Of a stretch of DNA of 25,807 nucleotides, positions 329 to 25,722 are shown piece after piece. Numbering within the stretch: position 1 is the stretch's first letter; every line of letters starts with the position of its first letter. The translations under genes and the position numbers were made by a program. A model generated the notes under the pieces. It was not told where the DNA came from. It searched no databases and saw only the letters and a list, made by a program, of their open reading frames with translations. The DNA is from a virus (lineage: Duplodnaviria; Caudoviricetes), in IMG/VR virus record IMGVR_UViG_3300008218_001408, positions 1 to 25,807 of that record; one strand, written 5' to 3'.

Positions 329-520
329 TTAGCCCTCGTATTGATTACAGACGGCACAGCCAGGATGCAACGCCTTCAGCGCGGATACCATCGTCGCCTT
401 GGAAGCCGTCTTGTAGTCATCACCATAATGCGCTAACTGGTGGACGATATTGATGCCGTCCGCAGCCTTCGCCTTCAGCTCGTTGAGGTGGGCAATGAGG
501 TCAGAATCGCTTATCGGCAT
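329..520 (-). CDS. Hypothetical protein, 63 aa, with C-terminal HxxCxxC
   Basis: ORF overlaps the fibre stop and has GGAGGAG upstream of its ATG. Confidence 0.65.
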   Translation of the reverse strand: MPISDSDLIAHLNELKAKAADGINIVHQLAHYGDDYKTASKATMVSALKALHPGCAVCNQYEG

Positions 521-2628
521 AACTCCTCCACTTGGGCTTCAAGTTCTTGGATGCGACGGTGCATCTGAAGCATACCCGACCAGGTGTACCACTGGGCTTC
601 GATCGGGTTCATCCCGATCCAGGGAGACCCGTCGTTGTTGGTGCTGACTTCCATGATGCCTAGGTCTACCAAGTGCTGGACACCAGGTTCTCGCCCCGTG
701 AGCGGTTGTCCTCGTAGACTATCCATAAGCGGTGCGAGAGCGGGTACGTCCGGATGGTACGCGACAATACCACAGCACGAGAACGAGGCAGGGCCATGCC
801 GCCCGCACTCATCACACACGTAGTCAAACGTTCCAGTGGGGTGAGTCGTATTCCACGTCAGCACTGGCGTTGGGTCTGTAGTGATTCGGAACATATCTCT
901 GCCACCGAGGGTTGCATCAGACCCAAGAGCAAACCTGTTGCCGTTAGCGTTGTCCGCTCCCATTCCCCAGGTGATGCCGCCACTGATATCGAACCGGATG
1001 AATGGGTTACCCCCCGACGTGCCACCGGAGAACAGCTGGAGATAGGCATCCGAGGCAGAGGCATTGGCGGTATTGCTCAGGACGATGGAGCGTGATGCGC
1101 CGGAATTGGAGGCCGTCATGTTTAGCGAGTGGGCGGAAAAATCGTTGCCCGCGTTGCCAATGTTGGAGATAGTATTCGCGTTCATGTCCAGTGCTGCGGC
1201 TATTTGGAACCCGCCAGAGTCGGTCAGCACACCGTCCGTGATGACCGTAGCGCCGATGGTGAAGTCAGTGGTGGCGTCAATCGTGGTACCTACGATGCTA
1301 GAAGCGCTGGCCGCACCAATGGCGGTGCCGTCTATGTTGCCAGCATTAATGTCCACCGTATCTAGAGTCGCTGTCCCATCGACCCGCGCATCGGTCGCCA
1401 CAAAGAGGTTTTTTGCGACCCCCAGGCCACCATCGGTGTGTATGCTGCCCGTAGTGCCGCTGGTGCTATCGGTAGCGTCATCCACCGATAGTGCGCCAGG
1501 GAGAGTGATGGTAGTAGTACCAGTAGCCACTTTTAGCACGTCGGCATCGGCATCGTTCTTGATCGTGATATCGGACGTGCTTCCCTGCCCAGTAAGGATC
1601 AAGCCTTCAGCGGAGGTGTACCCCAACGCCGCGTTATCCCCAGCAGCCGTGTCGCCTGTGACATGAATGCCGCCACCTGTAATGTCGCCCGTGGTGGTGA
1701 TGTTGGACGCGCCGTTATCTATCGCACCAAAGCCAGAGGTGATGGAGCCGCTATTCAAAGCACCAACCGTGGTCAGGGAAGAGGTGACCACGCCTGTGCC
1801 GAGGGTGTTATTGGACAGCACGTTGGTGCCGTTGATTTGATACGTGTTCCCGGAAGCCAGGTTCAGCACCGAGGCGGTCATGGACATTTCGGTGGTGCCA
1901 TCAATCTCGAAGGCAAGGGTGGTGCCGCCCACCACGTCGATGTAAGCTGTGGTACCGTCGTGGTCTCCCAGCCGGAGGTAATCCGTAGCCGGGGAGGTGT
2001 TGGAATGGATGTAGGCGTTCGGGTGGGTCGTGGCTGCGATGTTCCAATCCGTGGCGATAGCGCCCAGGTCGGTGATATGCAACCCCTGGTTGCTATTGCC
2101 CACTGCCAGTACCAACGCGTGATTGTCAGCATCAGCGGTAGACCAGCGGAGTGCAGCGTCAGAGCTAGACCCTAGGTGTATATCCACCGTGTCGTTATGG
2201 ATAGTGTCAGCGGTGAAAGTCTGCGAGGCAGTCCAGCTTTGAGCAAAACCCAACACCGCCATAGTGTCATTCCCCGTCAGGAGGGGGAGGGTGATGGTGC
2301 GGTTGGCCGCTATGGCAGCCGCCACCCACTCGTAGGTGAAGGTGTTACCCTCGGCGTCCGGAGGGTTACGCTGCTTGAGCACCGACACCTCAAGCTCTTG
2401 CATCTGCTCAGAGGAGTCATAGTTATGGAACCGAACGCTGGAACCGGAGGTTATCCGGACATCGTAGCGGTTCTCATCGGCCTCTGAGAACGACCAGACA
2501 CCGGAGGCGTTGGTGTTGGTGGAGGCTTCCGCCGTGGTGGTAGTGTTCCGAGGGAATAGCTCCACCGTGGCACCGGCAATAGCGGTGCCAACGTTATCTC
2601 TTAGGATGCCAGCCCGTTCAATAGCCAT
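511..2628 (-). CDS. Tail fibre / receptor-binding protein, 705 aa, with putative C-terminal chaperone-like domain
   Basis: N-terminal prealbumin/Cna-B-like segment (IAGATVEL...TNASGVWSF...YDVRI), long G/T/S/D-rich beta-fibre body, C-terminal Cys cluster and terminal coiled coil (RRIQELEAQVEEL). Last gene of the tail cluster. Confidence 0.85.
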   Translation of the reverse strand: MAIERAGILRDNVGTAIAGATVELFPRNTTTTAEASTNTNASGVWSFSEADENRYDVRITSGSSVRFHNYDSSEQMQELEVSVLKQRNPPDAEGNTFTYEWVAAAIAANRTITLPLLTGNDTMAVLGFAQSWTASQTFTADTIHNDTVDIHLGSSSDAALRWSTADADNHALVLAVGNSNQGLHITDLGAIATDWNIAATTHPNAYIHSNTSPATDYLRLGDHDGTTAYIDVVGGTTLAFEIDGTTEMSMTASVLNLASGNTYQINGTNVLSNNTLGTGVVTSSLTTVGALNSGSITSGFGAIDNGASNITTTGDITGGGIHVTGDTAAGDNAALGYTSAEGLILTGQGSTSDITIKNDADADVLKVATGTTTITLPGALSVDDATDSTSGTTGSIHTDGGLGVAKNLFVATDARVDGTATLDTVDINAGNIDGTAIGAASASSIVGTTIDATTDFTIGATVITDGVLTDSGGFQIAAALDMNANTISNIGNAGNDFSAHSLNMTASNSGASRSIVLSNTANASASDAYLQLFSGGTSGGNPFIRFDISGGITWGMGADNANGNRFALGSDATLGGRDMFRITTDPTPVLTWNTTHPTGTFDYVCDECGRHGPASFSCCGIVAYHPDVPALAPLMDSLRGQPLTGREPGVQHLVDLGIMEVSTNNDGSPWIGMNPIEAQWYTWSGMLQMHRRIQELEAQVEELCR

Positions 2629-5452: not shown

Positions 5453-5641
5453 TTATTCCTCACCAACCGATAAATCTTCGATGATTGCCGACTCTATAAC
5501 CCCTGCCCTCACCATCCCGTTGTGCGTGGAGAGCATGACCCGGAGTAGCTCCCTATTCTCCTCGATAAGCTCCAGACGCAAGGAGTCACGTATCTCTTCC
5601 AATACGGGCCGATTACTGGTCGTCGCCGAGCCAATCCGCAT
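5453..5641 (-). CDS. Hypothetical helical protein, 62 aa
   Basis: TAATG stop/start coupling with the adaptor gene and a coiled-coil-like LEEIRDSLRLEL segment. Confidence 0.65.
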   Translation of the reverse strand: MRIGSATTSNRPVLEEIRDSLRLELIEENRELLRVMLSTHNGMVRAGVIESAIIEDLSVGEE

Positions 5642-6903
5642 TACTCTGCCTTCCTCACGCCCACCAGCGGTGGGAACCTACCCCACGCCTGCCCCGCCCG
5701 CCGACCAAAGTACCCAGCAAGCCTACGAAGCTCGTCTGCGTCCGTCTGAGGGCCTCCAGAGGCCGATAGGAGGGCAAGCTCAGTGGCCCGGTCAATCACG
5801 TACTGGTCGTTTATCTCGCATGTCCCGGCATCCGTGGTCAGCAGTGCCGGGTCGTCACCACCCTGGAGGCGGATAAGGTTGCTACCGACCGTATCAACCC
5901 CACCCTTGGTGAGCACCACGTCTCGGTTCTCTTTGTCTATCCGCCAGAGGTGCCGGGGCAGTTCCAGCCAGGTCATCTTGTCGTTATTCACACCCCGGAA
6001 GTACCCCAGGATAACCGTGCAGGCACCTATGTCCGAGGTGTACCGGAAGCCGATGCTGATGATGGCCGTATCGCTCTCAGGGTTAGCCAATGCCACCCGC
6101 GCATGTGTCCATGTGTTCGCAGTGAGCGCCGGAACCGCCAGCGTCTCAAGAGGCGAAGCGCAGGCAGCCGTATCGTCCAGCAGGATGTCCAACTGGCCAG
6201 AGGTGGTAGCGACGGTGGATTTAATCCAGAACTCAAGGTGGGTATGCCCCGACATATCCAGTTCATCTATAACATCGGTGAGTAGGTCGTTCTCCGACGC
6301 ACTGGCGGCAACGGTTATAGAGAGCGCCTGAGAGCCGTGCTTGAAGTCCTCATCCTGGACTAGCTGGGTGAAGGGTGTATCGGGATCGGTGGTCTCGTCG
6401 AACTCCCGGTCACAGGGGTGCACCTCATCCCCCACGTAACCCGTCCGGTAGAAGACCCTTTTGACCATCGTAAAATCTGACGGCAGGGAATAACGGGCCT
6501 GGAACCTATCACCGTGGAGAGACAGGTCTTCGGTGGGGTCGTACACACGCCCGTAGGTCTCCATGATGGCCTGGTTAATGAAGTCATGGATGCGGGCTGG
6601 CGGGAACGGGGCTGCCCACTTCTCGTAGGTATCCCCGGAGGACGTAGAGTTAGAGAGAGCAGGCGCTAAGGTCAGGTCGGTTGCGGCCTGAGCGTAATCG
6701 TCAACGCGGGTAATTTGCCCATCGTTGTTGCCGGAGGTGGCAACTATCCACTCGCCGTTATGTTTGTCGTTGCCTCCCCTCAAAGTGTTATCAATCAGGG
6801 AAGTGGTATCGCCGCTAGAGGAGGCGGACGAGACGTATAGAGCGCGAGGTAAGTTGTAGCCCACGCTCACCCGTATCTGTTCTCTCGTTCGTCCTACTGG
6901 CAT
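5641..6903 (-). CDS. Putative head-tail adaptor with inserted carbohydrate-binding-like domain, 420 aa
   Basis: Adaptor-like helix IHDFINQAI followed by YSLPSDF, and a C-terminal YVIDRATELAL helix. A central jelly-roll-like segment reads LDMSGHTHLEFWIKS...LTANTWTHARVAL...IISIGF. Lies upstream of the nozzle. Confidence 0.6.
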   Translation of the reverse strand: MPVGRTREQIRVSVGYNLPRALYVSSASSSGDTTSLIDNTLRGGNDKHNGEWIVATSGNNDGQITRVDDYAQAATDLTLAPALSNSTSSGDTYEKWAAPFPPARIHDFINQAIMETYGRVYDPTEDLSLHGDRFQARYSLPSDFTMVKRVFYRTGYVGDEVHPCDREFDETTDPDTPFTQLVQDEDFKHGSQALSITVAASASENDLLTDVIDELDMSGHTHLEFWIKSTVATTSGQLDILLDDTAACASPLETLAVPALTANTWTHARVALANPESDTAIISIGFRYTSDIGACTVILGYFRGVNNDKMTWLELPRHLWRIDKENRDVVLTKGGVDTVGSNLIRLQGGDDPALLTTDAGTCEINDQYVIDRATELALLSASGGPQTDADELRRLAGYFGRRAGQAWGRFPPLVGVRKAE

Positions 6904-7868: not shown

Positions 7869-8312
7869 TTAGCTCCTAGTCTTTATCAAGGCGGGGCCAA
7901 AGGTGGAGGAGAAAGCTATCTGCTTCTTCATCTCCTCCGCGTCGTCCATGTACGCGCCTATCAGGTCTGTTGGTTCATGTTCCGCAGCCCTGGGCGACTG
8001 CGCCCGGAGGCTGTCCGCTATATCCCGAAGCTCCGCTACCGTGTGGAGAATTTCTACCCGGCCCGCGCTATCTATAATGCCGCCGGGCACCCGGAAGGGG
8101 CTGGCGGTGAAGTTACCAGCAGGCCCCAGGTCACGCCAGTGCTCCACCAGATTATCCCCGCGCAGCACGTAGATAACCTGGTAGCGGTGAAAGCCCCTGG
8201 AATCCGGGCGGTTATGCGCAAGCTCCGTTAGACAGAACGCAGGTTCATCCCTCTGAAGGGTAAACGTCCCGTGTAGAAGACTGGCCTTTTGGCTAGGCAA
8301 GGGCTTTTTCAA
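7869..8312 (-). CDS. Hypothetical protein, 147 aa
   Basis: TTG start with GGAGAGG upstream, overlapping the fibre stop and filling the operon gap. Confidence 0.7.
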   Translation of the reverse strand: MKKPLPSQKASLLHGTFTLQRDEPAFCLTELAHNRPDSRGFHRYQVIYVLRGDNLVEHWRDLGPAGNFTASPFRVPGGIIDSAGRVEILHTVAELRDIADSLRAQSPRAAEHEPTDLIGAYMDDAEEMKKQIAFSSTFGPALIKTRS

Positions 8313-9465
8313 GCTGCCTCTCCACCTTCTCTAGCCGAGTAGCAAGCTGCTTCATGCCCGACCAGGTGTACCACTGCGCCGGAACCATGTTCATCCCAAT
8401 CCAGGGAGTGCCGTCATTGTTCTGGCTGACTTCCAGCACTCCCAAGTCGTGCATGTGCTGGAGAGCCTTGGAAGGTCGCCAGTCCACGGAGTCCGGGTCT
8501 ATAACGGCCAAGTCAGTGACGAGGCCATGGAGCGCCGCTACGTCATCGTGCCATTTAACCTTGGCGCAGCACTTAAACTTCGTCAGGGAACTCTTCCCAC
8601 ACCCTTCACACACGAAGTCATAGTCGGAACCCTGGGTGGTGTCCATTGTTACCACCGATGGAGAAGCGTCAGTCATCCGCATCGCGTCGTCGGTGCCCAA
8701 GGCCGCTCCTCGACTAATGGCGAAGATGCTAGAGCTAGTGTCTACTCCAATGGTCAACTCATGGCCAGAGGTTTCCAACATGGATATGAGGGCGTCAACG
8801 GTGGCCGACGAACCACCGCAAGCAACCCGGATTCGGGCACCAGCGCCAGAATCGTTAGAGGTGTTTGTCACATCCAAGCTGGTCACCGCTCCTGAGTTAG
8901 CCGCCGAGTGAGCCAGGGCACTGGCTGCTACGGTAAGGTGGCTGGTGCCACCCACCTGGAGCGCCAACGTCGTCCCACCCACCATATCCACGTAGCCCGT
9001 AGTGCCATCATGGGCACCTATCCGAATGTAGTCAGAGGCCGGAGTCGTATTCGAGTGGATATACACCTCCGGATGGGTAGCCGCCGAAACGTTCCAGTTG
9101 GTATTCACGGCACCTTGGTCGGTGATATGAAACTGCTGCGACGTGTTATCAAGACCCAGGACGAAAGAGTGGTTATCGGTGTCGCCTGTGCCCCAGCGGA
9201 AGCCAGCATCGTTGCCGGTGCCGAAGAGCATATCCAGGTCATCGTCGAGAGACCAATCGCCAGCCACGCCAGCCAAGCCGCCAGCGGTAACGGTAATGCC
9301 GCCCGCTGTCACAGTCAGCCCACCTGTATCAATGGTCAGACCGCCGGTGGCCACCGTGAGACCACCAGAGGCAATATGACCCACACGGGTGCCCTGGTAA
9401 TAGTAATCAAGCCGGGAGTTTGAGGGGTCGTAACGCCAGCCAGTGTGTGTAGGGGAAACAGCCAT
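8293..9465 (-). CDS. Second fibre-like protein (possible head fibre), 390 aa, paralogous to 511-2628
   Basis: GGLTV heptad repeats; shares an ~85-aa internal module and the C-terminal domain with the tail fibre; TAAGGAG RBS. Confidence 0.8.
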   Translation of the reverse strand: MAVSPTHTGWRYDPSNSRLDYYYQGTRVGHIASGGLTVATGGLTIDTGGLTVTAGGITVTAGGLAGVAGDWSLDDDLDMLFGTGNDAGFRWGTGDTDNHSFVLGLDNTSQQFHITDQGAVNTNWNVSAATHPEVYIHSNTTPASDYIRIGAHDGTTGYVDMVGGTTLALQVGGTSHLTVAASALAHSAANSGAVTSLDVTNTSNDSGAGARIRVACGGSSATVDALISMLETSGHELTIGVDTSSSIFAISRGAALGTDDAMRMTDASPSVVTMDTTQGSDYDFVCEGCGKSSLTKFKCCAKVKWHDDVAALHGLVTDLAVIDPDSVDWRPSKALQHMHDLGVLEVSQNNDGTPWIGMNMVPAQWYTWSGMKQLATRLEKVERQLEKALA

Positions 9466-10730: not shown

Positions 10731-11606
10731 CTAACTCGTTGGGGCAGTTGCATCTGAGTACAACTCTAGAAGCCAGTTGCCCGAACTGCGCTCACCGTAG
10801 GCGTACTCGTCGTACATGAACACGCTGTCCCCACCACCGCCGATGTGCGGCTCCCGGCGGGTCTCCGTCCAGGGGGAGCGGCCCTGCACCAGCACAATGG
10901 CCTCCCGTGCGAAGGTGCCGCCCTTAGCGTCGTCTGAGGAGTCAATGGTGATGTTCCCGTCCTCATAAAGCTGAGAGGAACCCACCATGCCCTCGAAATG
11001 CTCCCGGAACACCCTGGCAGTCAGCCCCTCCGTGAGCACATCCGTGCCCACACCGGCCCGAATCTCGTCCTCAATGTCCTTTATCTGGAATCCGTGGAGG
11101 ACGGTGCGGTAAGGCTTATTGCCCGGCTCAGTGGCGTTGGAGGAGATACGCCGGGTGGCAGCCTGGATGTGACCGGAGGTGAGGGTAGTGCCAGCGCCCG
11201 CCAAAGAGGTAGTAGCCCCGTCCAAGACGGTGACGCCGTTCTCGTCCTTCAGCCGCTGGATGGCGTTCTGCGCCAGCCCGCCCATCTGAGACACAACAGG
11301 CTTGGCTATCCGAAGGCGTACCCGGTCAGATACGAAGGTCTGGATACCCACAACCGTGGGGGTGATGGAGAAGAGAGTGTCCACGATTAGCTGCGGGTTA
11401 TCCAGCGTCTGCGTCTCAGCGATGTTCTGAGCCGTAAGCTGGGCCAGGTCAATCTCGTTCCAGGTAAGGCCCATATTCCGCCCCAGCGTTTTCTTATCCA
11501 CAAGCTGGGACATAACTCCCTCGAACTCCCGCACCTGGCGGGCCGACATTATCATGGTCGGAAGGGAATCGTTTAGGGACGAAGTGTGTACTCTGCCTGC
11601 TGGCAT
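10731..11606 (-). CDS. Major capsid protein (HK97 fold inferred), 291 aa
   Basis: Follows the scaffold, with a strong AGGAGG RBS. Capsid-like motif order: ETQTL...ITP...VSDR...AIQRLKDE...VLHGFQIKDI...G...YEDGNI...EYAYGE. Confidence 0.85.
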   Translation of the reverse strand: MPAGRVHTSSLNDSLPTMIMSARQVREFEGVMSQLVDKKTLGRNMGLTWNEIDLAQLTAQNIAETQTLDNPQLIVDTLFSITPTVVGIQTFVSDRVRLRIAKPVVSQMGGLAQNAIQRLKDENGVTVLDGATTSLAGAGTTLTSGHIQAATRRISSNATEPGNKPYRTVLHGFQIKDIEDEIRAGVGTDVLTEGLTARVFREHFEGMVGSSQLYEDGNITIDSSDDAKGGTFAREAIVLVQGRSPWTETRREPHIGGGGDSVFMYDEYAYGERSSGNWLLELYSDATAPTS

Positions 11607-11619
11607 CTATCTGCCTCCT

Positions 11620-12411
11620 CTATCGAAGAGTTTCTTTGAACTTCTTTGCCCGCACATGGTCGGCGGGAGAAGCGACGTAATCGGGGTCACCGTATACCGT
11701 ATTCACCCACTCCTCATCGTCACTGAGCGCGGCGGCTGAGGGTTGGCTATTATCAAATGTCTGTCCTGCGGGCACCTGCGCCCGTTTGAGTCCTGCTATC
11801 TCCTTCTTTAATGAGGATATTTCCGTGGCTGAACGCGCCGCTGCCTCCATAGCCTGGGGCGAGTCGTACTGGAAAAGCATCTTCGGGTCAGCGCCAGGAT
11901 GTCGGGCTGCATAATAGAGGGCCGCGTTCATCTTGCCCTGGAGATGTTCCGATTGGGACTGTGCCTGCCTTTGTAGCTCCACCTCCCTGAGACGATAGCT
12001 CTGGCGCTCACGGGACATATAATCAGCTTGGTCTTGCGGGATGCCCTGGTTTTCAAGCTGCTGCCGATACGCCATGGCCTCCTGGGCCATCTGTAGCTGC
12101 TGCTGTTGGTGCTCTAGGTAGGCTCGCTGTTGGCGCTCACGGGCTAGCTCTTGGGCTAGATACTGCTCTTGCGAAGGAAGGGCAGGAGCAGGTGGGGCAG
12201 CCGGGACAGAATCCGCCGCAGGGGGTGCTTGCGTTCCCTCCACAGCCGCCTCACCACCTTCTCCCGTGGCGGACGGTGTGCCCGGAGCCTCTGCACTAGG
12301 AGCGCCGTCAACTCCAGTAGAGCTAAGGTCTTCCGCGTCCGCCATCTCATCCAGCCCAAAGATGGCTGGAGTATCTTCTACGGGTTCCGTACTTAATGGC
12401 TGGATTGTCAT
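11620..12411 (-). CDS. Capsid scaffolding protein, 263 aa
   Basis: Acidic Pro/Ala-rich disordered N-terminus, Gln-rich coiled coil and short basic C-terminal helix; immediately upstream of the capsid gene. Confidence 0.75.
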   Translation of the reverse strand: MTIQPLSTEPVEDTPAIFGLDEMADAEDLSSTGVDGAPSAEAPGTPSATGEGGEAAVEGTQAPPAADSVPAAPPAPALPSQEQYLAQELARERQQRAYLEHQQQQLQMAQEAMAYRQQLENQGIPQDQADYMSRERQSYRLREVELQRQAQSQSEHLQGKMNAALYYAARHPGADPKMLFQYDSPQAMEAAARSATEISSLKKEIAGLKRAQVPAGQTFDNSQPSAAALSDDEEWVNTVYGDPDYVASPADHVRAKKFKETLR

Positions 12412-12645: not shown

Positions 12646-15600
12646 CTACTGGCGGACTCGCACATACTGTCTCTCTTGCCTCCATCGGCGGCGTGCATCC
12701 TCTGAGTCCTCAAACCGGCGGCGCTCCCATCCAGGGAGCCGCCGGAATAGCTCTTGAGGAGGACGCCTAGTATTGGTCTCAGCCTGGATATACCACCACT
12801 CCTCGGAATCCGTGCCGTACTTAAATTCCAGGTCACGCAAGGCCCTACGCCACTGTTGGCTGCGGTTGCGGCCCGGCGTACCAAAGATAGCCTCCTGGAC
12901 GGCGTAGTAGTCCTCTAGCGCCTTCTCGTTGGCGTTACGCGCTGCCGGGAACTCCGCATCCCGACCAAAGTGAACAAGCCGCGTCTGGTCACGCCGAATC
13001 CCAAACTCTTTCTTAGCGGAGAAGTATTGCTCCACCATATCGGATTTGGGGAGGCGAGGGCGGGCATCCAGGATACCCTGCCACGCCTTTATCTCCTCAG
13101 CGTCCAACTGCACTATCTCCTCAGTGTACGGAGAGAGCTTATGCTCCGGCCTGTCCGCGTTGTATTCCTCCCACACCTCATCCTTCTCAAAGCGAGCCAG
13201 TCCACTATCCACCGATAGGCCAGCAGGTGCTCCATACGCCACCCCCCTGGAGTCGCGACTGAAAGCATCTACCGTCTTATAGCTCCCGACGGTGGCACCG
13301 AACATTCCAGGCGATGCCACCAAGCCCCCAAGGAGACCCTCCTCTCGTATGGCGTCAATCAGGTCTTGGATGAACAGAGGTGTGAGATGATTCCACGTCT
13401 CCCGCTGAATGGCGGACATCTGTGGGGTAATCGCTTCGCCAATGAAGCTGGTTCCAGTTGCCACATCCACAACCATACCAACGGGCGGGCCTAGCTTAGA
13501 GCGGATAAGCCTCATAAAGACATCAAATCGGTCGGCATCGCGTACCTGTTTCGTGCCAACGCCCTTAGTCTGACCCGCAATTATCTGTGCGGCGTAGCGG
13601 GCAACAGGCTGATAGCCCGCCCAGAAATCAATCCGCACGGCCCCAATCCTAATTTTGCCAAAGTCCGCAGAGCGAGGGTCAAGCTCCACGTCCGCCTTCC
13701 CAGATAGCTTAGCCAGAGATAGCACGCCAATCCCAGTGCCCACGAACACCGCCAGGTCTTTCATCACCATCCGCCGCACACCGGGGTACTGCCAAATCAT
13801 CGGCGCGGTAAACCGAGAGGTGAAAAGACGCGACGCGAAGAATATGCCGTTCAATACAGGCGCTATTTCTTCCAACGGCCCCAGCGGGCCACGGCCCGTC
13901 GCTCGATTAACCCACTTAGCCCACGAGTGTGCGTTGCGGGCCAGCGTGTCTTTATCCAGCCCCTGTCGCACCCACCCTTGGTAAGCGTCGTTCCACACGT
14001 CAAACCGGAGCTTATTAAGAAAGGTTGTATACGCCCGCGCCCAGGGGCGGATGAGAGGCAGCTTCCGGGCCCAACGGGACATAAACACTTCTTCTTGCTG
14101 CGCCAGGCCCGCCCCCACACCACGGCTCATGTCCGCGATAAACAGGCCGGCCTGCTGCGCTGCGCCCCAGTTCGGATGCGCCCGTATTCCTCGGTCCGTT
14201 GCCTGCGCATTCGCCTCCCTCATCAACGCCTTGAACATCGGCACATGATTCTGGAGGAACCGCTGAGGATGGCCAATCAGCAGGCCTCCCTGCCGTAGCG
14301 GAGCAGACAAGTCATGAGATGTAACGAGCGAACGGGGGAAGTTCCAAATATTCATCGCCAGTTCCCACGACTTCGCACCAAGAGAGCGTTGTCCCAGCAC
14401 CGCCTTGGCAAACTGTGTGCCAAAGATACGCTCCAGAATGACTATCTGGCTCCGCTGGGGAACGCTCCCAAGCAAGATGTTCTTCAACCCATCATCCGCC
14501 TGGAGGATGTTGAGCAAGGTCTCATCAGAATAACGCACCATGTCCTTGAGTTGATTCACCTCAAGGCCCGTCAAACCCTCTTGCGGCGGCAGGAACGACG
14601 GTTCACGTAGTGGCCCCGCCATAGCACCACGGGCACGGCCAAGCGCCCTTGTGGCATCTGCGCCTCTCGTTAGACGCTCACCCGCTGCTGCCACACGCTG
14701 TCGCAGGCGTGCCCGCTCAGTGCCCCGGCGCTTAACATCCAGCGGCTTGGCCTTCTTAATAAGGGCGGTGAGCTTATTCACCACATCCGGCTGAGCAGGG
14801 TCTGGCACCGCTCCTGCAACCCCAGTAGGCGGCTGCGCACCGCCACCAGTACCACCACCACGCAACTTACCCAGCACGTCTCTCACATACCCCAGCTTCT
14901 TCCGGCCTGCATTACCCAGGCCAGGCGCTGTCAGCTTCAGCCCAGCCTCACGAGCCTCAAGATGCGCTATCTGGCGCTGAGGCGTACGCTCTCCCAAAGC
15001 AATCCGGCGCACCTCTTCAACAGCATCTTCGCCCCGGCGTGTAGCCGTGCGGAGCGGCCTCGCAAACGCCCGCTCCACGGTCTGTTCCGCAGGTGTTAGC
15101 GGCTGAGGGCGAGCACGTTCGGGCTGGAAGAGACGGCCCAAAGGAGTTGGGGCAGGCGCCACCGTTGTAACCCCAGGTCTTAATTGACTTGGTGTATGAA
15201 CTAATGGCTGACGCGGGGTTTGACCAGCCAACTGAAACTTACCAGTTCGGATAAGCGCCTCACGTACCGCATACGCGTCAGTATAGATATTGTCGGCTAT
15301 GCCCACGCGAGTAAATTGTGCAGGCTGCTCCAGTGTTCGCTTGAAAAGTACATCCCTAACATGGTCTCGCGCACCCTCCGGTGTAACACTGCCCTCGCTA
15401 CGCGAGTAGGTAGAACCCGTGATGCGCCTTTGAGCAGGGTATCCTACTTCTGGCAAGCCCTTATAAATACCCTTATCTTTGTATTGAGGCCAATACCTCG
15501 TACTTTTTATCGGCTTTCCACGCTTGCCTAGATGAGTTGGCACAATCTCTATAATGTCATTCATTGCTGCGTCAATAGCTTCGTCTAGCTGTTTTGCAGG

Positions 15601-16734
15601 CATAGCATTGATAGCATCAAGCAACCGCTGCGCTCGTGTCACAGGTTCAATAGGCATAGGTTCAGCGGTTCTACGCGCCACACCACCTACTCGCCCCGGT
15701 TGGGCCACCCGCGACCTCTGGAGGATACCTCTAAACGCTTGCTCTACGACCTCTTCCGCAGATGTTCGCTCGCGCACTACATGAAATGGAGCCACACGTC
15801 CTATATCTTGCGGAACTATACGTGGAGGTTCTACCGGCCCAGGGACGAACTCCTGTAGTGGGCGCTGGCCACCGGGAGGAATGCGCTGGAGCGCCTCCTC
15901 CGCTGGTGTCAGAATACGTGGCGGCTCACGGAGTAGCTCCTGGCGGGCAGCACGCACTTGCCCTTGCGTGCGAATCGGCACTGGTGCCTGCCGCGTCGTA
16001 CTCACGGGTGGACTTGGCCGGAGGGCACCACCAGCTAATCGCGCACCGGCTTTGAAAGGCAGCCCCAGGAGGAACTCCGCGCCAGCAGGAATCGCAGCAC
16101 CCACCTGCCCCACGCGGGCAGCACCCGCCAGACCTTGAAAGCCAAGCTGTCGTAGTCCACTACCTCCGGCGGCAGCAGCGCTCGCTGCGGCGGCACCCCG
16201 TCCCAAGCCACGGAAAACACCCCCGGCTGTCGGCCCACCGATAAGCAAGTCAACACCAAATCCGTGTCCGAAAAGTTCACCTAGCTTCCCCTCGGCAGGA
16301 ATGTCTTGAGTTGTCAAATGACGCGGCGCACCGACCATGCGCCGCTGTGCCCACCGGCTCTGTAGGAACTGCTGCCGCTCCTGACTAGATAGGTCGCGGT
16401 AAGCGGGCACCCGCGTCATAAAGGCATCTAAGACTTCAGGAGCAAACTGGCCATGCCCAGCACGAGCTACCTCAGCTAGCTCCGGGCGAATACGGCCAGT
16501 CGTCTCATCATAAAGCACCCGGTTTAACAAACTAACCTCACGTAAGAGATGTTCTTGACGTGAGAGGGCAGGCGGCAGCTTTGCTGTTGGCTGTGCTGTT
16601 GGCTGACCTGCACCTTGAGTCGGAGCAGGTTGCTCCCAAGTCGCTACAGGGGACTCACCACCGCCGGGCTGCTTGAGGCGTTCTAACTTCTCAATAAGCC
16701 GTCTGCGCCGTTCCTCATCGAGAGGTTCAGGCAT
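12646..16734 (-). CDS. Large putative internal virion / ejection (polyvalent-like) protein, 1362 aa
   Basis: R/A/G/P-rich N-half and a helical C-half with hydrophobic stretches. The DPRSADFGKIRIG...DFWAGYQ motif is one I recall from large phage polyvalent proteins. TAATG coupling upstream. Confidence 0.7.
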   Translation of the reverse strand: MPEPLDEERRRRLIEKLERLKQPGGGESPVATWEQPAPTQGAGQPTAQPTAKLPPALSRQEHLLREVSLLNRVLYDETTGRIRPELAEVARAGHGQFAPEVLDAFMTRVPAYRDLSSQERQQFLQSRWAQRRMVGAPRHLTTQDIPAEGKLGELFGHGFGVDLLIGGPTAGGVFRGLGRGAAAASAAAAGGSGLRQLGFQGLAGAARVGQVGAAIPAGAEFLLGLPFKAGARLAGGALRPSPPVSTTRQAPVPIRTQGQVRAARQELLREPPRILTPAEEALQRIPPGGQRPLQEFVPGPVEPPRIVPQDIGRVAPFHVVRERTSAEEVVEQAFRGILQRSRVAQPGRVGGVARRTAEPMPIEPVTRAQRLLDAINAMPAKQLDEAIDAAMNDIIEIVPTHLGKRGKPIKSTRYWPQYKDKGIYKGLPEVGYPAQRRITGSTYSRSEGSVTPEGARDHVRDVLFKRTLEQPAQFTRVGIADNIYTDAYAVREALIRTGKFQLAGQTPRQPLVHTPSQLRPGVTTVAPAPTPLGRLFQPERARPQPLTPAEQTVERAFARPLRTATRRGEDAVEEVRRIALGERTPQRQIAHLEAREAGLKLTAPGLGNAGRKKLGYVRDVLGKLRGGGTGGGAQPPTGVAGAVPDPAQPDVVNKLTALIKKAKPLDVKRRGTERARLRQRVAAAGERLTRGADATRALGRARGAMAGPLREPSFLPPQEGLTGLEVNQLKDMVRYSDETLLNILQADDGLKNILLGSVPQRSQIVILERIFGTQFAKAVLGQRSLGAKSWELAMNIWNFPRSLVTSHDLSAPLRQGGLLIGHPQRFLQNHVPMFKALMREANAQATDRGIRAHPNWGAAQQAGLFIADMSRGVGAGLAQQEEVFMSRWARKLPLIRPWARAYTTFLNKLRFDVWNDAYQGWVRQGLDKDTLARNAHSWAKWVNRATGRGPLGPLEEIAPVLNGIFFASRLFTSRFTAPMIWQYPGVRRMVMKDLAVFVGTGIGVLSLAKLSGKADVELDPRSADFGKIRIGAVRIDFWAGYQPVARYAAQIIAGQTKGVGTKQVRDADRFDVFMRLIRSKLGPPVGMVVDVATGTSFIGEAITPQMSAIQRETWNHLTPLFIQDLIDAIREEGLLGGLVASPGMFGATVGSYKTVDAFSRDSRGVAYGAPAGLSVDSGLARFEKDEVWEEYNADRPEHKLSPYTEEIVQLDAEEIKAWQGILDARPRLPKSDMVEQYFSAKKEFGIRRDQTRLVHFGRDAEFPAARNANEKALEDYYAVQEAIFGTPGRNRSQQWRRALRDLEFKYGTDSEEWWYIQAETNTRRPPQELFRRLPGWERRRFEDSEDARRRWRQERQYVRVRQ

Positions 16735-17093
16735 TAGAAGAAGAACTGTGCTTGAGGATTAAAGCGGGCCTGCTGACGGCCCGCGAAAGACGGGGGCTGT
16801 GCGCCAAAGAAGGCGTCAAAGCCCGCAAACTGGTCGGGGAAACCTCCCTCCAGGAAGGATGATTGCTCTGGGCGGAAGGGGTCTTGCGTGGCGAAGCGGG
16901 CGGTGGGAGCCTCCCCACCAAGTATCTGCTGCCCCAAGACACCCAGGAAACGGTTATGGATGGGCGCGAACTGGGACTCAAAGAACCGACGCTGGTTAGG
17001 CGACCCGCCAAACTGGTTCTGGAACGACTGGAAGCCAACCCGTGGGCTGGTCTCCAGGAAGTCCTCGAAGCCCTGCTGGAAGAAGTTAGCCAT
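16734..17093 (-). CDS. Small Phe/Gln/Gly-rich putative ejection protein, 119 aa
   Basis: Abuts both neighbours (TAA ATG upstream, TAATG downstream). Contains 24 Phe and no K/Y/W/C. Confidence 0.7.
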   Translation of the reverse strand: MANFFQQGFEDFLETSPRVGFQSFQNQFGGSPNQRRFFESQFAPIHNRFLGVLGQQILGGEAPTARFATQDPFRPEQSSFLEGGFPDQFAGFDAFFGAQPPSFAGRQQARFNPQAQFFF

Positions 17094-18824
17094 TTAGATG
17101 TGCCCAGTAGCGCCCAGGAATCGCCGGAAGAGCGACTCTCCGGATATGTCAGCGCCCGCCTGAAGCGTCGCCAACCGGCTGGCCGCTATATCTTCGGCGA
17201 AGGGAGCGAGGAAGGGGTTCACCTGACCCCGCGCATTAGCCAAAATCATCTCCCTGGCTACAGCCGGGTCGGATAGCGCGGCTAGCTGTGCCTGTTGAGC
17301 ATTGCTAACCTCCCCTTGCGTGAAGAGGTCCGCCAGTTCGTCAAACCTAGCAGGCACAGCACTCCGGTTAAACGGGAGGCTCCCACCACGCAAGAAGTCT
17401 GCGAAGTTAGACGACTGGACAGCCCCCGGATTCAAGATGTTTTGAAGCTGGAACTGCGCCGATATGTCCGGGAACTGCCCCGCCACAACACCTCGCGTGG
17501 CCGGGTTGAAATCAAAGGGGGATGCCCCACCAAAGGCGAAGGCGTTGAACTGGTCACGCCGCCCACCCGGCGTAAGGCCAAACCGCTGTTCCGTAAACTG
17601 ACGGAACGGGTCTGTTTGTGTAGGTAGTCCCGTCGCCGAAGGTGCCCTGAAAAAGCTGGTCATGTCTCTGCCTCCTATATCGCCTACACCAAGGGCCGCT
17701 ACGCCACCCATGCTATCATCCAATGCGGTCTTCGGTACAGGGTCGCGTTCGTAGAATAGTTCATCCGCCCACCGGTCTGCCTGTTGCTGCGCCAAGAACC
17801 TGGCCCCGCCAGATGTACCACCTGGCGAGAAGTCAAAGAACTCCCGCCGCACATCCTCACGGAGCGTATTGAAGTCCGTGTACGGCGTCCGGGAATGGCG
17901 AGTCTGAATATGCTGTAGCGCCAGAAACAGCTCAACGAGCTTATCGTCCTCCGCCGCCTCCGCGCTTAGCTCCGCTAGTCCGCCTGTTTCCGTAACATCT
18001 AACCCAAGTTGCGTTAGAAACTGCTGAGACAATTCCTCCGCCCGGGACGACGATGACCCCTGGCTTTCATAATAGAGTCCCAACTCCGCCAACGCTTCAT
18101 CGACCGTTAGGTCATCCAGCGCCAGAAGGTCTTGCACGTTCTGCGGCGTCAGCACCGTGGGCGGCTGATTGCGTGGCTGCTCTTCCTTGGCTCTCAGCAT
18201 ATCGTCAACGCCACCCTGGGGGAAACCAAGAGCCAGCAGGCTATTCACCGCCTGTTCGCGACCCATACCCTGCTCCCCGCGCAGGTGAGCACTGTAGCTA
18301 TCCATAATGGCATGGAAGGTATTGCCTCTTAGCAGGTCTTGCACTCGCTCCGAGACTTCTCCCTGTACTGTTGGTTTAGGAGCATCCATCTCAGCCCGGA
18401 TGTTCGACTCACGCCAGGCGTCGTACTCAGAAGCAGGCAGCCCCAAAGATAGGGCTAATGTCTTCAACGCCTCCGCTGAGATAAGGAGGCGCTGTGCCCA
18501 GAGAGCATCCAAGGCAGCGTAATTAGGGCCAGGGGGCGGGGGAGGCTGAGCGCCAAAGTCACCACCCCCTTCATCTGTCGGAGCCGTCACCGTCACCGGA
18601 GGAGGCTCACCAAATCCCGTACCCAGCTGAAGACCCAGTGACGCCACATCTGGAGCCGTTCCCTGCGCCTCCATAATAGCGGTGGCCCGTGCCGTCGCAT
18701 CCGCCTCCGTGTGCCCTCTGTCCAGAAGTAAGGACTGAATAAGCCCGAACTTGTCATACAGCCCGTTGTCAGGCAGAGCCAGGATGTCCCGAACAGATAC
18801 AGATGGTGAACTAAAGCCGACCAT
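17094..18824 (-). CDS. Putative internal virion / ejection protein, 576 aa, with a possible internal start at 17663
   Basis: TAATG coupling to the portal. Acidic helical N-part and Phe/Gln-rich C-part; internal AGGAGG-7 nt-ATG. Confidence 0.7.
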   Translation of the reverse strand: MVGFSSPSVSVRDILALPDNGLYDKFGLIQSLLLDRGHTEADATARATAIMEAQGTAPDVASLGLQLGTGFGEPPPVTVTAPTDEGGGDFGAQPPPPPGPNYAALDALWAQRLLISAEALKTLALSLGLPASEYDAWRESNIRAEMDAPKPTVQGEVSERVQDLLRGNTFHAIMDSYSAHLRGEQGMGREQAVNSLLALGFPQGGVDDMLRAKEEQPRNQPPTVLTPQNVQDLLALDDLTVDEALAELGLYYESQGSSSSRAEELSQQFLTQLGLDVTETGGLAELSAEAAEDDKLVELFLALQHIQTRHSRTPYTDFNTLREDVRREFFDFSPGGTSGGARFLAQQQADRWADELFYERDPVPKTALDDSMGGVAALGVGDIGGRDMTSFFRAPSATGLPTQTDPFRQFTEQRFGLTPGGRRDQFNAFAFGGASPFDFNPATRGVVAGQFPDISAQFQLQNILNPGAVQSSNFADFLRGGSLPFNRSAVPARFDELADLFTQGEVSNAQQAQLAALSDPAVAREMILANARGQVNPFLAPFAEDIAASRLATLQAGADISGESLFRRFLGATGHI

Positions 18825-20650
18825 TAGCCTCTAGGCCCCGTAAGGCCAATACCCGCCAGGCGTTGCTCCATACTGGCCTGCGCCCCCGGCCTAGCCTGAC
18901 CTGGGAGGGTAGGCCCGCCCGCGTTGGAATTATTCGATTGCCTGGGCGACGGGGGCGCTCCCTGGGCAGAGTTGGAGAAGACCTCTGGCGCTGGCCCACC
19001 AGGACTCACCCCGCCTCCATTTATCTGGTTACCCTGGAAAAGTCCTCCACCCACCATGCCCATCATCTGCATCTGCACTATCCGCTGCTGGTAGAGCATC
19101 ATTAGCTGGTCAAAATACATCTGGGCCAGCATAGGCTCACCACGCTCCGCCAGCGCCATCCCCATCGTGTAGAGCGTGGTCTCCGGCAGCATCCGCTCCC
19201 CTAGCTGCGCCTTCACCGAATCGGCTATCACGCTCGTCTCCGGGAAGCGCATTATCTTCTCGCGAATATACGTATCGTCCGCCAGAGGTACAGGCCCCTC
19301 CCTGAGCATCTGTGCCACCGTTATCTTGGTCATATCGTCTTCCGGTAGCTGCGGGATGAGCTTTACCTCCGGATGGCACCCCTCCCGCACCACCCAGGCG
19401 GGGATAATCTTGGTCTCGCTGCGGATGTTCTTACACGGAATGGCGAATTCAAAGAACCTCTCAGAGCCGTACATCTCCGCTATGATGTCCAGAATCTGCT
19501 CGTAGGCGTTCTGGACGGCATCCAGACGCGGGGTAAGCGCCGTATCCGCGCCTTGCTTCAGAGAGTTGATGGCGAAGCCGGAAAGCTGAAACTGAAGTTC
19601 CCCGAAGACGGCGTGGGAAAGCCCGCCCCGCTGCATCTCCCCAGAGATTAGGCCAAGAATGTCACCCAAGCGTTGTGACATTTCCGCCACTTGCACGGGT
19701 TCCAGCGACTCCCCTTCCGCCAGCGCAATCTCCAGTGACGAGCGGTTGGGGTCGCTCTCAAGCACCTTGGAGCCATCCCGCGAGGTGAGTACCCAGGAGC
19801 GGTCACGGGTCTTGAGCACCAGGTCGAATACCGCCGACATAAGCTGGTTGTTCTTCGGAATGATGCCACGGTTCTCCTCAAAAATGGACTCCATGTACGC
19901 ATCAATCATATCGTTAGCGGAATCGCGCTGAATCATCGGTGCGGTCTCTACTGGCGCAAAGAACACCGGCACTTTATCCGCCCCGTGAGATGTGCGCTTC
20001 TTCAGAATCCGCCCATCCATGACCACGGCGTTAATATTTCGGTCGTAGTAATCGTAGACATCTATCCCCACATCCATCCCCTGGTCATCCGGCAGAGTCA
20101 ACCGCCGGAGACCGTACTCCGCCATGATAGCCCCTTTGGTTTTCTTGAGCTTATTACAAGCCCAATCCAACTCCCCATCCCCACCCACTTCCCAATAGGT
20201 GTGGAGGATGTCCCAGGGCATAATGTCGGCAAAAGTATTCTCGTGCCGGTCTGTACGGAGAAGTGCCCGCCCCACCACACCACCACGGACGGTAACGTAC
20301 CAAGCCAACTGGCTCCGTAGCCGACCACGCTTTCTGAGCCGACCATCCGCCATCTCCAACGCCCCGGTGAGGAACATCTCCTTAGCATCGTCTATCATCC
20401 GCTGGTGTTCTAGGTCACCGGGGTGGCTGATCGAGACGATAAGTTCAGCCTGGGTAATCCAAGCGATTATCTTCTTGGCGACAACCTTGGGCATATTGGA
20501 GGTATAGAAGCCGTAATCGGCGGGTGCATCATCCGCCGTCCGCTCCAGCATGAAGAGCTTCTCATCAGCCCTCATCCTATCCCGGAGGGCGCTGGTCTGC
20601 CGGTGGTGCCTATCTACCCGTTCGCGGATTTCGTCTGGTAGCGATGCCAC
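18824..20650 (-). CDS. Portal protein (podovirus P22/T7-like), 608 aa
   Basis: Follows the large terminase. Motifs SNMPK, WYVTVRG, PWD, VYDYYD, PVF and LSGFAINSL, then a Q/M/G/P-rich tail. GAGGAG RBS before GTG. Confidence 0.85.
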   Translation of the reverse strand: MASLPDEIRERVDRHHRQTSALRDRMRADEKLFMLERTADDAPADYGFYTSNMPKVVAKKIIAWITQAELIVSISHPGDLEHQRMIDDAKEMFLTGALEMADGRLRKRGRLRSQLAWYVTVRGGVVGRALLRTDRHENTFADIMPWDILHTYWEVGGDGELDWACNKLKKTKGAIMAEYGLRRLTLPDDQGMDVGIDVYDYYDRNINAVVMDGRILKKRTSHGADKVPVFFAPVETAPMIQRDSANDMIDAYMESIFEENRGIIPKNNQLMSAVFDLVLKTRDRSWVLTSRDGSKVLESDPNRSSLEIALAEGESLEPVQVAEMSQRLGDILGLISGEMQRGGLSHAVFGELQFQLSGFAINSLKQGADTALTPRLDAVQNAYEQILDIIAEMYGSERFFEFAIPCKNIRSETKIIPAWVVREGCHPEVKLIPQLPEDDMTKITVAQMLREGPVPLADDTYIREKIMRFPETSVIADSVKAQLGERMLPETTLYTMGMALAERGEPMLAQMYFDQLMMLYQQRIVQMQMMGMVGGGLFQGNQINGGGVSPGGPAPEVFSNSAQGAPPSPRQSNNSNAGGPTLPGQARPGAQASMEQRLAGIGLTGPRG

Positions 20651-22010
20651 CCCAACTCCTCATCTGTACGCGCTGGCGGTGCTGGCTAGTTACGTAGCCG
20701 TACCTGTCCACCAACCCGTAAATTATGGCCTTGATGCCGTGGTTGAAACGGTCTTCAGGCTCTTGTCCTATGATGTTATCATTTCTATCCAACCGCCAGC
20801 GGTATGCCTGTAGCTGCTCCGTGTGGGGGTTGAGCGCCACCCCCATCTCAGAGAGCACGCCCTGGCAGTGAGGCGCTATCACGATGCTTGTCCAGTTCCG
20901 GAGCGGGTCGAACTTAAGGAAACTCTTTAGGCGTTCCGTGCCCTGGTTTATCGGTATCTTCTGGCTCCGGAGATACACCTGGGCCTTGGATTGCCACACC
21001 TCCGCCGGAGCGGGCATCGCCTGGTGATACGTTCCAGAGATGTCAATAGCCCCACCACGCACATCTGACCACCAAGGCTTATTCACGGCGATGCCGATAA
21101 TGTCATCGGTAATAAACCGCTCGTAAATCTCATCAATTATCCAGATTTGGCCGTTTATCTCCTGGGCTACCTCCACCGCGTAGGCCCCCGCATACCCAGG
21201 GTCAATCCAAAGATAGACCGGCTCGCCCCTCACGTAAGAGATGTTCTTGACGTGATAGTTGGCGTTGAACTCAGGGAATACCAAGCCCTTCGGCGGCACC
21301 GCCCGGCCCTCAATCCGCTCCATGAAGAAGGTGTCAGAGGACAGCCTCTTGAGGCGCTGGATTTTCGGGTCGTTGATACCTCCCTCGTAGAGATAGACGT
21401 TAGTGTACGAAGGGAGCCGGAAGGAGGCGCAGCCCTCCTCATGCTTCCACGCCTCCGCCACCTGCGGATACCATCCCAACGAGCCTTCCAGTGTTCCCGA
21501 AATGAACACCCAGGCATCTTTTGGCGCGGCGCGGCCTATAACGCGCTCAAAGGACTCCAAATCAAGACCCGCACCCTCACAGACGATAATCCCACGCGGG
21601 GCTTCCATCCGGAGCTTGGAGGGGTCGTTGGCAGACTTGGATTTCACCACCAGCATCGGCTTGGCGTCGGTGTTAGCACCGAACACCTCAATCTGGCCTG
21701 GGTCTAGCCTTTTGGTGGTCTTGGCGTTGTTGCCGAATATCGCCTGCATATCCGAGGCGATATATTCAAACTCCCGCCGGTTCCCCTCATAATCGGCGGA
21801 AACCAACCAGTAAATGGCTGGCTCCTCATCCACCTCACCAAACCGGGAAAGGAAATATTTAGAAGCACAAATGGATTTGCCAGCCTGCTCACCTCCGGTA
21901 ACGATGGTGAACTGCTGGCGGGACTCTAATATGGGCCGCTGGGCATCTGTCGGGGCGAACTTAACCGCCTCAAACAGAGCCTCCTGGACATCCTGGGTAG
22001 CGGTGGTCAG
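20610..22010 (-). CDS. terL: Terminase large subunit, ~466 aa, extended 59 codons beyond the ORF-track start
   Basis: The frame is open up to CTG at 22010 and includes PTDAQ and Walker A GGEQAGKS. Downstream are a Walker B-like IIVCE, coupling motif SGT, PSYTN, GLVFPEF and RNase H-like WIDPGY. Confidence 0.88.
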   Translation of the reverse strand: MTTATQDVQEALFEAVKFAPTDAQRPILESRQQFTIVTGGEQAGKSICASKYFLSRFGEVDEEPAIYWLVSADYEGNRREFEYIASDMQAIFGNNAKTTKRLDPGQIEVFGANTDAKPMLVVKSKSANDPSKLRMEAPRGIIVCEGAGLDLESFERVIGRAAPKDAWVFISGTLEGSLGWYPQVAEAWKHEEGCASFRLPSYTNVYLYEGGINDPKIQRLKRLSSDTFFMERIEGRAVPPKGLVFPEFNANYHVKNISYVRGEPVYLWIDPGYAGAYAVEVAQEINGQIWIIDEIYERFITDDIIGIAVNKPWWSDVRGGAIDISGTYHQAMPAPAEVWQSKAQVYLRSQKIPINQGTERLKSFLKFDPLRNWTSIVIAPHCQGVLSEMGVALNPHTEQLQAYRWRLDRNDNIIGQEPEDRFNHGIKAIIYGLVDRYGYVTSQHRQRVQMRSWGGIATRRNPRTGR

Positions 22011-25197: not shown

Positions 25198-25722
25198 TTA
25201 TACCGAGGGCGTCATCTCCTCAATCTCTTCCTCTTCCTTCTTCTTCCCCTTCTTCCCCCCTGCCCGGATGTACTCCCGTATCTTCTGCATCGTCTCCTTC
25301 GCTTGCTCGTCACTCATAGCCGCCGCAGGCCGGTACTTGTTCGGCAGATTCGAGTTCAATAACGTTATCAAAAGAATCGGACTCACGTTATCCCCCTGCC
25401 TCTTTACCCTCTCCCACGCAAATACCTCCAACCTGTCGTTCCACCTGTGCTCCGCCTCCGCCCTCCTCGCCTTGAACCTCAATACGTCGTTCGTATACCA
25501 CGCCTTCGCCGTTCCCGCACTCACCCCCGCCCTGTCCGCCGCTATCGAGTTTACCTTCACATCTGCGTAATGCCTAAGATACCGGTTCTGGTTCTCCCAA
25601 CTCTTCTTCTGGTTGGGTTGCAATAAGTCTAGGTCTACTCCGTAATCACCTGGGTCGCTCCCCTCCCAGATGGAAGGCTCCAGAGCGCCATTAGGTGGTA
25701 GTTCTGGCTTAGGCGTGGGCAT
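25198..25722 (-). CDS. terS: Terminase small subunit, 174 aa
   Basis: HTH (IAADRAGVSAGTAKAW), helix ...DRLEVFAWER, and the LLITLLNSNLPNKYR signature typical of TerS; upstream of terL. Confidence 0.75.
   Translation of the reverse strand: MPTPKPELPPNGALEPSIWEGSDPGDYGVDLDLLQPNQKKSWENQNRYLRHYADVKVNSIAADRAGVSAGTAKAWYTNDVLRFKARRAEAEHRWNDRLEVFAWERVKRQGDNVSPILLITLLNSNLPNKYRPAAAMSDEQAKETMQKIREYIRAGGKKGKKKEEEEIEEMTPSV

What the first reader, a model, noticed from the sequence alone, without database searches (positions are those of the whole stretch)
16734..17663. Putative ejection proteins purged of Lys, Tyr, Trp and Cys and loaded with Phe
Seen, counted by hand: the 119-aa protein has 24 Phe and the last 189 aa of the 576-aa protein has 21 Phe. 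Across these 308 residues there are zero K, Y, W or C and only one internal Met. An ~200-aa tract of the 1362-aa protein (about residues 150-355) also lacks Y/W/C/M. Neighbouring genes use these residues normally, and Phe codons are AT-rich, so GC bias does not explain it. Inference: selection on injected proteins to avoid reactive or modifiable side chains (Lys conjugation, Tyr modification, oxidation or cross-linking). An alternative is an FG-like Phe/Gln polymer that forms the DNA conduit. This could point to an undescribed host defence.
Basis: partly seen in the sequence, partly recalled or inferred. Interest (0 to 1): 0.75.

Follow-up and report, generated by a model that had tools for sequence, protein, structure and literature searches.

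The report
Phage ejection proteins repeatedly shed Tyr/Trp/Met
Two likely DNA-ejection proteins of a marine phage family that likely infects Dehalococcoidia bacteria keep a fixed set of aromatic positions, filled by Phe alone in five unrelated lineages and by Tyr/Trp in others, likely to keep these unfolded proteins from being oxidised or cross-linked, whereas their lack of Cys and scarcity of Lys are family-wide and ordinary.

Summary
The counts are right: 24 Phe in 119 aa, 21 Phe in the last 189 aa of the 576-aa protein, no K/Y/W/C. The genes lie in a cassette portal-medium-small-giant-scaffold-capsid kept across 55 phage lineages; relatives in bacterial genomes are Chloroflexota only, one an integrated Dehalococcoidia prophage. 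Position, missing Cys and loss from chromosomal remnants point to ejection proteins (inferred; no family or fold match). The 'purge' splits in two. Cys absence (55 of 55) and Lys scarcity (0.9%) are family-wide and also seen in known ejection proteins: ordinary. Tyr/Trp/Met loss is real and lineage-specific: aromatic content stays near 17% while 15 columns switch between Phe and Tyr/Trp; the switch is coupled between small and medium proteins (contrasts r=0.67), extends to Met and weakly to the giant, not to terminase or scaffold, is not explained by GC, and the five all-Phe lineages are not one clade (AU p=0.003). Cause is unshown: avoidance of oxidation or cross-linking is likeliest (0.4), host-envelope tuning next (0.3). 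Nothing ties it to a host defence; the giant keeps 48 Lys, 26 Tyr, 22 Trp. An FG-like gel is unlikely.

The parts
16734..17093 (-). Small 119-aa Phe/Gln-rich protein, likely ejection protein; amphipathic helices, 15 conserved aromatic columns
17094..18824 (-). Medium 576-aa protein, likely ejection protein; residues 1-365 lineage-specific (6 K, 8 Y, 3 W), C-terminal domain conserved
17097..17729 (-). K/Y/W/C-free C-terminal domain of the medium protein (residues 366-576), likely paralogue of the small protein
12646..16734 (-). Giant 1362-aa Cys-free protein, likely the gp16-like ejection protein
   Evidence: role inferred from size and place
15658..16335 (-). Y/W/C/M-free Gly/Ala/Arg/Pro-rich tract of the giant (residues 134-359), not matched in distant relatives
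13285..14787 (-). Conserved domain of the giant (about residues 650-1150) with the only long hydrophobic segment (about 989-1012, KD19 1.63); keeps 21 K, 6 Y, 12 W, 14 M
18824..20650 (-). Portal protein (weak matches, under the Pfam cut-off)
20610..21833 (-). Terminase large subunit, used as non-virion control
11620..12411 (-). Likely scaffold (place and make-up; no family hit); 10 Tyr, 4 Phe
   Evidence: role inferred
10731..11606 (-). Likely major capsid protein (place, size, conservation; no family hit)
   Evidence: role inferred
5641..6903 (-). Likely adaptor of a short tail (weak SU10_adaptor match, E 5e-4, under cut-off)
25198..25722 (-). Terminase small subunit

Best explanation
The three genes between portal and scaffold likely encode the internal ejection proteins of a short-tailed phage family that likely infects Dehalococcoidia, and the all-Phe state of the small protein and medium C-domain is one end of a family-wide Phe-versus-Tyr/Trp switch, likely selected to keep proteins that are stored and ejected partly unfolded from being oxidised or cross-linked. 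Shown: gene order, composition, 15 aromatic columns, coupling between the two proteins, co-loss of Met, repeated change on the tree, no matching change in terminase or scaffold. Inferred: virion location and ejection (about 0.85); the small protein and medium C-domain are paralogous amphipathic helical modules that would pack through their aromatic residues into the conduit from tail to the single membrane of the host (about 0.6). Guess (about 0.4): the aromatic ring is needed at each column, but Tyr, Trp and Met (with Cys and Lys, already rare everywhere) are the side chains that react with oxidants or form protein-protein and protein-DNA cross-links; one cross-link would jam passage through portal and tail, so lineages under higher exposure (long virion persistence or a reactive host surface) would swap them for inert Phe, Leu and Gln wherever the chain is exposed, while folded domains keep theirs.
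For: Order portal-medium(s)-small-giant in all loci long enough to show it. Cys 0 in small (55 of 55) and 0 in mediums and giants after three mis-called ORFs were corrected, against 129 in 30,908 portal residues; Cys suppression marks ejection proteins (PMC11445570 passages). Aromatic share constant (median 17.2%, 11.4-20.6), Phe share split 17 lineages >=0.71, 37 <=0.52, 1 between. Y+W+M per 100 residues in all-Phe / other Phe-type / Tyr-type lineages: medium C-domain 0.5 / 5.6 / 10.2, giant 3.8 / 4.9 / 7.0, terminase 8.2 / 9.1 / 8.6, scaffold 4.6 / 5.8 / 5.2. Contrasts: small~medium r=0.67; Phe share~Met r=-0.54 (p=3e-5), ~giant Y+W -0.34 (p=0.04), ~giant K -0.38 (p=0.02), ~terminase Y+W -0.04, ~GC 0.05. 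Met is not aromatic, and the 4 longest Y/W/C/M-free tracts among 30 giants belong to 4 of the all-Phe lineages (the fifth giant was under the length cut), which a pure aromatic swap does not predict. All-Phe lineages rejected as one clade, p-AU 0.003.
Against: No family, solved-structure or fold match names any of the three proteins; the giant's model is poor (pLDDT 45). No long hydrophobic helix in the small protein (KD19 max 0.56), unlike T7 gp14 (1.31). His, also oxidisable, is not lower (0.5 vs 0.2%), and Lys in small+medium does not follow the switch (r=-0.16, p=0.24). In 5 of 5 neighbour pairs the all-Phe lineage also has slightly less Y+W+M in terminase, and Phe-type lineages have fewer A at fourfold sites (0.44 vs 0.50) and all-Phe ones less TpA at codon junctions (0.90 vs 1.12-1.14), so a mild genome-wide bias may contribute. 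Portal shifts too (Phe share 0.45 vs 0.28). The all-Phe group was defined on the small protein, so its own values are circular. Trees are quick searches with long branches. No habitat or host data separate the two types.
Confidence: 0.42

Rival explanations
1. Structural tuning: the aromatic columns contact host lipid or S-layer and each other; Phe (more apolar) versus Tyr/Trp (interfacial) is matched to the host envelope, and the two paralogous modules co-evolve because they co-assemble.
For: Ring kept at 15 columns; amphipathic helices; strongest coupling is between the two paralogous modules (r=0.67); Dehalococcoidia envelopes differ between orders (peptidoglycan present or lost, S-layer, monoderm; PMC10284905 passages); portal, which ejection proteins touch, shifts too.
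Against: Leu does not rise with Phe share in contrasts (r=0.10); Met loss and the long Y/W/M-free low-complexity tracts of the giants are not expected from lipid matching; no transmembrane-length helix.
Confidence: 0.3
2. Weak genome-wide bias (mutation spectrum, host amino-acid or tRNA supply) that shows mainly in fast-evolving ejection proteins; no specific selection.
For: Fourfold A share 0.44 vs 0.50, p=3e-5 uncorrected for kinship; TpA lower in all-Phe lineages; terminase Y+W+M lower in 5 of 5 pairs; Phe-type lineages have long branches.
Against: A 56:44 T:A bias cannot give a median Phe share of 0.91 vs 0.39; Trp-Phe needs two base changes; contrasts with terminase, scaffold and GC are flat; scaffold keeps 10 Tyr to 4 Phe in this genome.
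Confidence: 0.15
3. One reading: escape from a dedicated host defence that modifies Lys/Tyr/Trp/Cys/Met of injected proteins.
For: Repeated, coupled loss confined mostly to the likely injected proteins; Ubl-conjugating anti-phage systems exist (search listing only).
Against: Lys scarcity is family-wide and does not follow the switch; the giant, the part most likely to reach the cytoplasm, keeps 48 K, 26 Y, 22 W; no Pup ligase in 2 of 2 candidate host genomes, control rang in 1 of 14 (genomes may be incomplete).
Confidence: 0.08
4. FG-nucleoporin-like disordered Phe/Gln gel that forms the DNA conduit.
For: Make-up rich in F, Q, G, P, S, Arg over Lys, low net charge.
Against: Only 2+2 FG dipeptides; fixed length and conserved Gly/Pro/aromatic columns across 55 lineages; predicted 28-residue helix at pLDDT 76-85.
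Confidence: 0.05

Closest known systems
Podovirus ejection (internal virion) proteins: T7 gp14/gp15/gp16, P22 gp7/gp20/gp16 (PMC8954989, section 4 read)
   Same: Small operon of small, medium and giant, fast-diverging proteins identified mainly by size and synteny; Cys nearly absent; giant with a hydrophobic segment in its C-terminal half.
   Different: Order is medium(s)-small-giant and sits between portal and scaffold; small protein is 103-149 aa, not about 200, has no predicted transmembrane helix, and is 17% aromatic against 4-9%; longest K/Y/W/C-free run 211 aa against 33-108; no sequence match; likely host is a monoderm.
Schitoviridae ejection operon, DEV gp73/gp72/gp71 and N4 gp52/gp51/gp50 (PMC11445570, passages)
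   Same: Cys suppression across the operon; small protein low in Lys (N4 gp52 2.7%).
   Different: No RNA polymerase match in the giant; no Phe-versus-Tyr/Trp switch in the passages seen.
Kuravirus SU10 gp20-gp24 (PMC9509320, passages)
   Same: Several Cys-free Gln/Gly-rich ejection proteins, some Lys-poor (gp22 1.6%, gp21 2.6%); weak SU10_adaptor match for the window's adaptor.
   Different: SU10 proteins are 5-7% aromatic, lie after the tail genes, and show no sequence match to these.
IME1 viruses of Dehalococcoides (10.64898/2026.09.15.751708, parts 1-2 of 5 read)
   Same: Integrating viruses of Dehalococcoidia.
   Different: IME1 lack tailed-phage hallmarks and are likely filamentous; this family has terminase, portal and likely short tail.

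Membership tests
Podovirus ejection proteins (functional class) | Operon of small, medium and giant genes in the virion module of a short-tailed phage | tested here: met
   short tail inferred from weak P22_portal and SU10_adaptor matches, with no tape-measure or sheath family hit among the 21 proteins scanned
Podovirus ejection proteins (functional class) | Cys suppression relative to portal and terminase | tested here: met
Podovirus ejection proteins (functional class) | Inside the virion and released on infection | not testable with these tools
   no culture or proteome; loss of these genes from 15 chromosomal remnants that also lack an adjacent terminase is indirect support
T7 gp14 / P22 gp7 / DEV gp73-type pore protein | Predicted transmembrane helices | tested here: not met
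   KD19 max 0.56 in the window, 0.81 at most in 50 relatives; hydropathy scan only
T7 gp14 / P22 gp7 / DEV gp73-type pore protein | Sequence or fold homology | tested here: inconclusive
   no match in PHROGs, Pfam, PDB sequences or folds; monomer model may not show the assembled fold
T7 gp16-like / large polyvalent proteins | Homologous C-terminal domain | tested here: inconclusive
   model pLDDT 45; 3 BFVD hits at E<=0.001 are unnamed or uncharacterised large viral proteins, named internal virion and polyvalent proteins only at E>0.1
FG-repeat cohesive domains | Many FG repeats in a disordered chain | tested here: not met
   definition from own knowledge
Anti-defence adaptation to Lys-conjugating systems | Lys loss specific to lineages whose hosts hold the system | tested here: not met
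   Lys scarcity family-wide, flat in contrasts; host side nearly untestable

The most novel reading that the evidence does not exclude
Marine Dehalococcoidia expose incoming phage proteins to a surface or envelope chemistry (oxidising, halogenating or cross-linking Tyr, Trp, Met, Cys, Lys) that acts as an undescribed defence, and phage lineages have escaped it at least five times by rebuilding their ejection conduit from Phe, Gln and Arg.
Probability: 0.1. Interest if true: 0.85.

Novelty: new variant of a known kind. Interest (0 to 1): 0.52.

Why it matters
It gives a natural experiment: homologous 110-aa ejection proteins ranging from 24 Phe/0 Tyr/0 Trp to 1 Phe/12 Tyr/7 Trp at the same columns, changed in concert across two or three proteins several times. 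That makes it testable whether chemical robustness or membrane matching shapes ejection proteins, extending the known Cys rule to Tyr, Trp and Met. The host-defence reading, which would matter most, has little support.

Tried and rejected
GC as the driver: the first 22 lineages, fetched with a Phe-rich query, gave rho -0.63 and -0.82; with portal-fetched loci Tyr-type lineages span portal GC 0.36-0.63 and contrasts are weak or flat (small alone r=0.27, p=0.046; both proteins r=0.05). A single Phe/Tyr split: seen in 50 lineages, broken after a Tyr-rich query added L258 and L260. First paralogy test weak and in another register (probability 10%). No family or structure names for the three proteins ([two other PHROGs hit 3 and 2 of 49 members, one named virion structural protein], 59, 60, 82, 102-104, 125). 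No cultured phage matches the portal; terminase matches are about 24%. Prok-E2_B search rang nowhere, control included, so it shows nothing. No RNA holder listed. Earlier findings of the scan: nothing in 3 look-ups. Paper searches showed no paper on this family or on a Tyr/Trp/Met switch in ejection proteins (listings only; open-access library; supplements not read).
Full report
Observation. The counts hold: 24 Phe in the 119-aa protein, 21 in the last 189 aa of the 576-aa protein, no Lys, Tyr, Trp or Cys; against 22 other window genes the chance of no K/Y/W/C in 308 residues is 8e-13. The free run is really residues 366-576; the first 365 residues hold 6 K, 8 Y, 3 W. The giant's Y/W/C/M-free tract is 134-359 (0 of 5000 shuffles as long). 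Contigs of 4 of 4 runs laid agree at 99% or more; 14 runs, labelled marine or aquatic viral metagenome, hold half or more of the words (7 may be the source and many may be one campaign).

Context. The window is a viral record with terminase small and large subunits, portal and excisionase (PHROGs E 1e-5 to 9e-4) and weak P22_portal and SU10_adaptor matches under cut-off. Scaffold, capsid and nozzle are assigned by place only. The three genes have no family hit. Loci fetched with the small protein or portal keep portal-medium(s)-small-giant wherever long enough. 96 loci with full portal and complete small protein gave 50 lineages at under 85% portal identity; later scans brought 55. Samples are the best 80 hits per scan, so the set is not random.

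Host. All 16 portal relatives in GTDB genomes are Chloroflexota, 15 titled Dehalococcoidia. One, L055, has the whole cassette, with integrase and primase-helicase on one side and host aminopeptidase, ABC transporter and dehydrogenase genes on the other; its small protein has 17 F, 0 Y/W/K. The small protein was found in 2 of 401 genomes of that class; the second is a 3.9-kb contig, a weaker link, with 1 F, 12 Y, 7 W. The host of the window's own phage is inferred. Marine Dehalococcoidia are predicted to have lost peptidoglycan, and the phylum is regarded as monoderm (PMC10284905, passages).

Why ejection proteins. Size series and synteny are how such proteins are usually recognised (PMC8954989 section 4). 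Cys is absent from all 55 small proteins and, after three mis-called ORFs were corrected (L055 medium, L158 and L062 'giants'), from mediums and giants, while portals hold 129 in 30,908 residues. 13 of 18 ejection proteins of T7, SU10, P22, N4 and epsilon15 have none and the rest 1-2 (the N4 and epsilon15 assignments rest partly on recall), and Cys suppression is stated for Schitoviridae (PMC11445570). Against a simple filing: no transmembrane-length helix in the small protein, no fold match, giant model unusable.

Anatomy. The small protein is predicted at pLDDT 71.5 with helices 3-12, 17-25, 32-59, 92-98, several amphipathic. Only the C-terminal domain of the 576-aa protein has relatives (6 non-self hits, residues 362-571). 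Profile comparison joins small protein and medium C-domain (probability 37%, 75% for its first half, score 29 against at most 10 in 30 shuffles) and the mediums with each other (89%); an earlier try was weak. Paralogy is likely, not certain.

What is ordinary. Lys is 0.9% of the small proteins, 28 of 55 have none, 38 at most one, including phages at GC 0.35; known small or medium ejection proteins are often Lys-poor too (1.6-3.9% in 7 of the 18).

What is not. Aromatic content is constant near 17%, about double the highest known control, but 15 columns hold Phe in one set of lineages and Tyr/Trp in another; Phe share is split with almost nothing between. Five lineages (window, L005, L009, L031, L055) have no K/Y/W/C in the small protein; three of them none in the medium domain either. 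They are rejected as one clade (p-AU 0.003), the 37 Tyr-type too (0.029) (quick trees, long branches, groups named from composition after a first tree was seen). Four have a supported neighbour (SH-aLRT 93-96) that keeps Tyr or Trp; the fifth pair is unresolved. In contrasts the shift is coupled between small and medium (r=0.67, 54 contrasts), goes with Met loss (-0.54) and weakly with Tyr/Trp and Lys loss in the giant, and not with terminase, scaffold or GC (54 of 55 lineages). Against: terminase Y+W+M is slightly lower in 5 of 5 pairs, portal shifts moderately, base-level biases lean the same way, His does not fall. Capsid data are too few (10 lineages, 1 Tyr-type).

Mechanism. Shown steps end at the pattern. 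I infer a conduit built of aromatic-anchored amphipathic helices, and I favour chemical robustness as the cause of the switch (0.42), because the residues lost are the oxidisable and cross-linking ones (own knowledge), Met is among them, and the loss reaches low-complexity tracts of the giants, where the four longest such tracts among 30 belong to all-Phe lineages. Envelope tuning (0.3), weak genome-wide bias (0.15), a dedicated defence (0.08) and an FG gel (0.05) follow. No habitat or host data distinguish them, and co-assembly could not be modelled.

Novelty. A new variant of a known kind: the class and the Cys rule are known; this family and its repeated Phe versus Tyr/Trp/Met switch did not appear in searches (listings of an open-access library; supplements not seen). 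PMC11784390 (abstract only) and the ubiquitin-like papers (listing only) were not used further.

Noticed in passing
L041-L054 and L056: 15 Dehalococcoidia/Chloroflexota genomes keep portal (split in two ORFs in L046) and capsid, scaffold hit in 9, adaptor in 13 and nozzle in 12 as far as the loci reach, but no terminase beside the portal and no ejection genes, which are replaced by variable insertions; 3 tested portals form one clade. Possibly a domesticated capsid-tail particle without DNA delivery.
   Followed up: partly
L258:1997-3873: Deepest-branching relative has the opposite extreme: small protein 1 F/12 Y/7 W, and a stand-alone 171-aa medium domain with 17 Y/7 W.
   Followed up: partly
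L057-L211 (Tyr-type clade): 35 Tyr/Trp-type lineages form a compact clade (portal identity 52-84% among the first 34) that spans GC 0.36-0.63 and mostly has 2-3 medium genes, while all 16 Phe-type lineages first studied have one.
   Followed up: partly
window 12646-18824: The three genes abut (stop and start overlap or touch) and the small and giant genes have no clear Shine-Dalgarno stretch upstream, suggesting translational coupling.
   Followed up: no
window 511-2628 and 8293-9465: Two likely fibre or appendage proteins share a similar C-terminal region with Cys pairs (seen by eye); the 705-aa one has long Y/W/C/M-free runs.
   Followed up: no
L018:10310-19447: Giant of 3045 aa without Cys; giants range from 770 to 3045 aa and share only a roughly 500-aa domain with the window's in 5 other lineages plus a weak sixth.
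   Followed up: no
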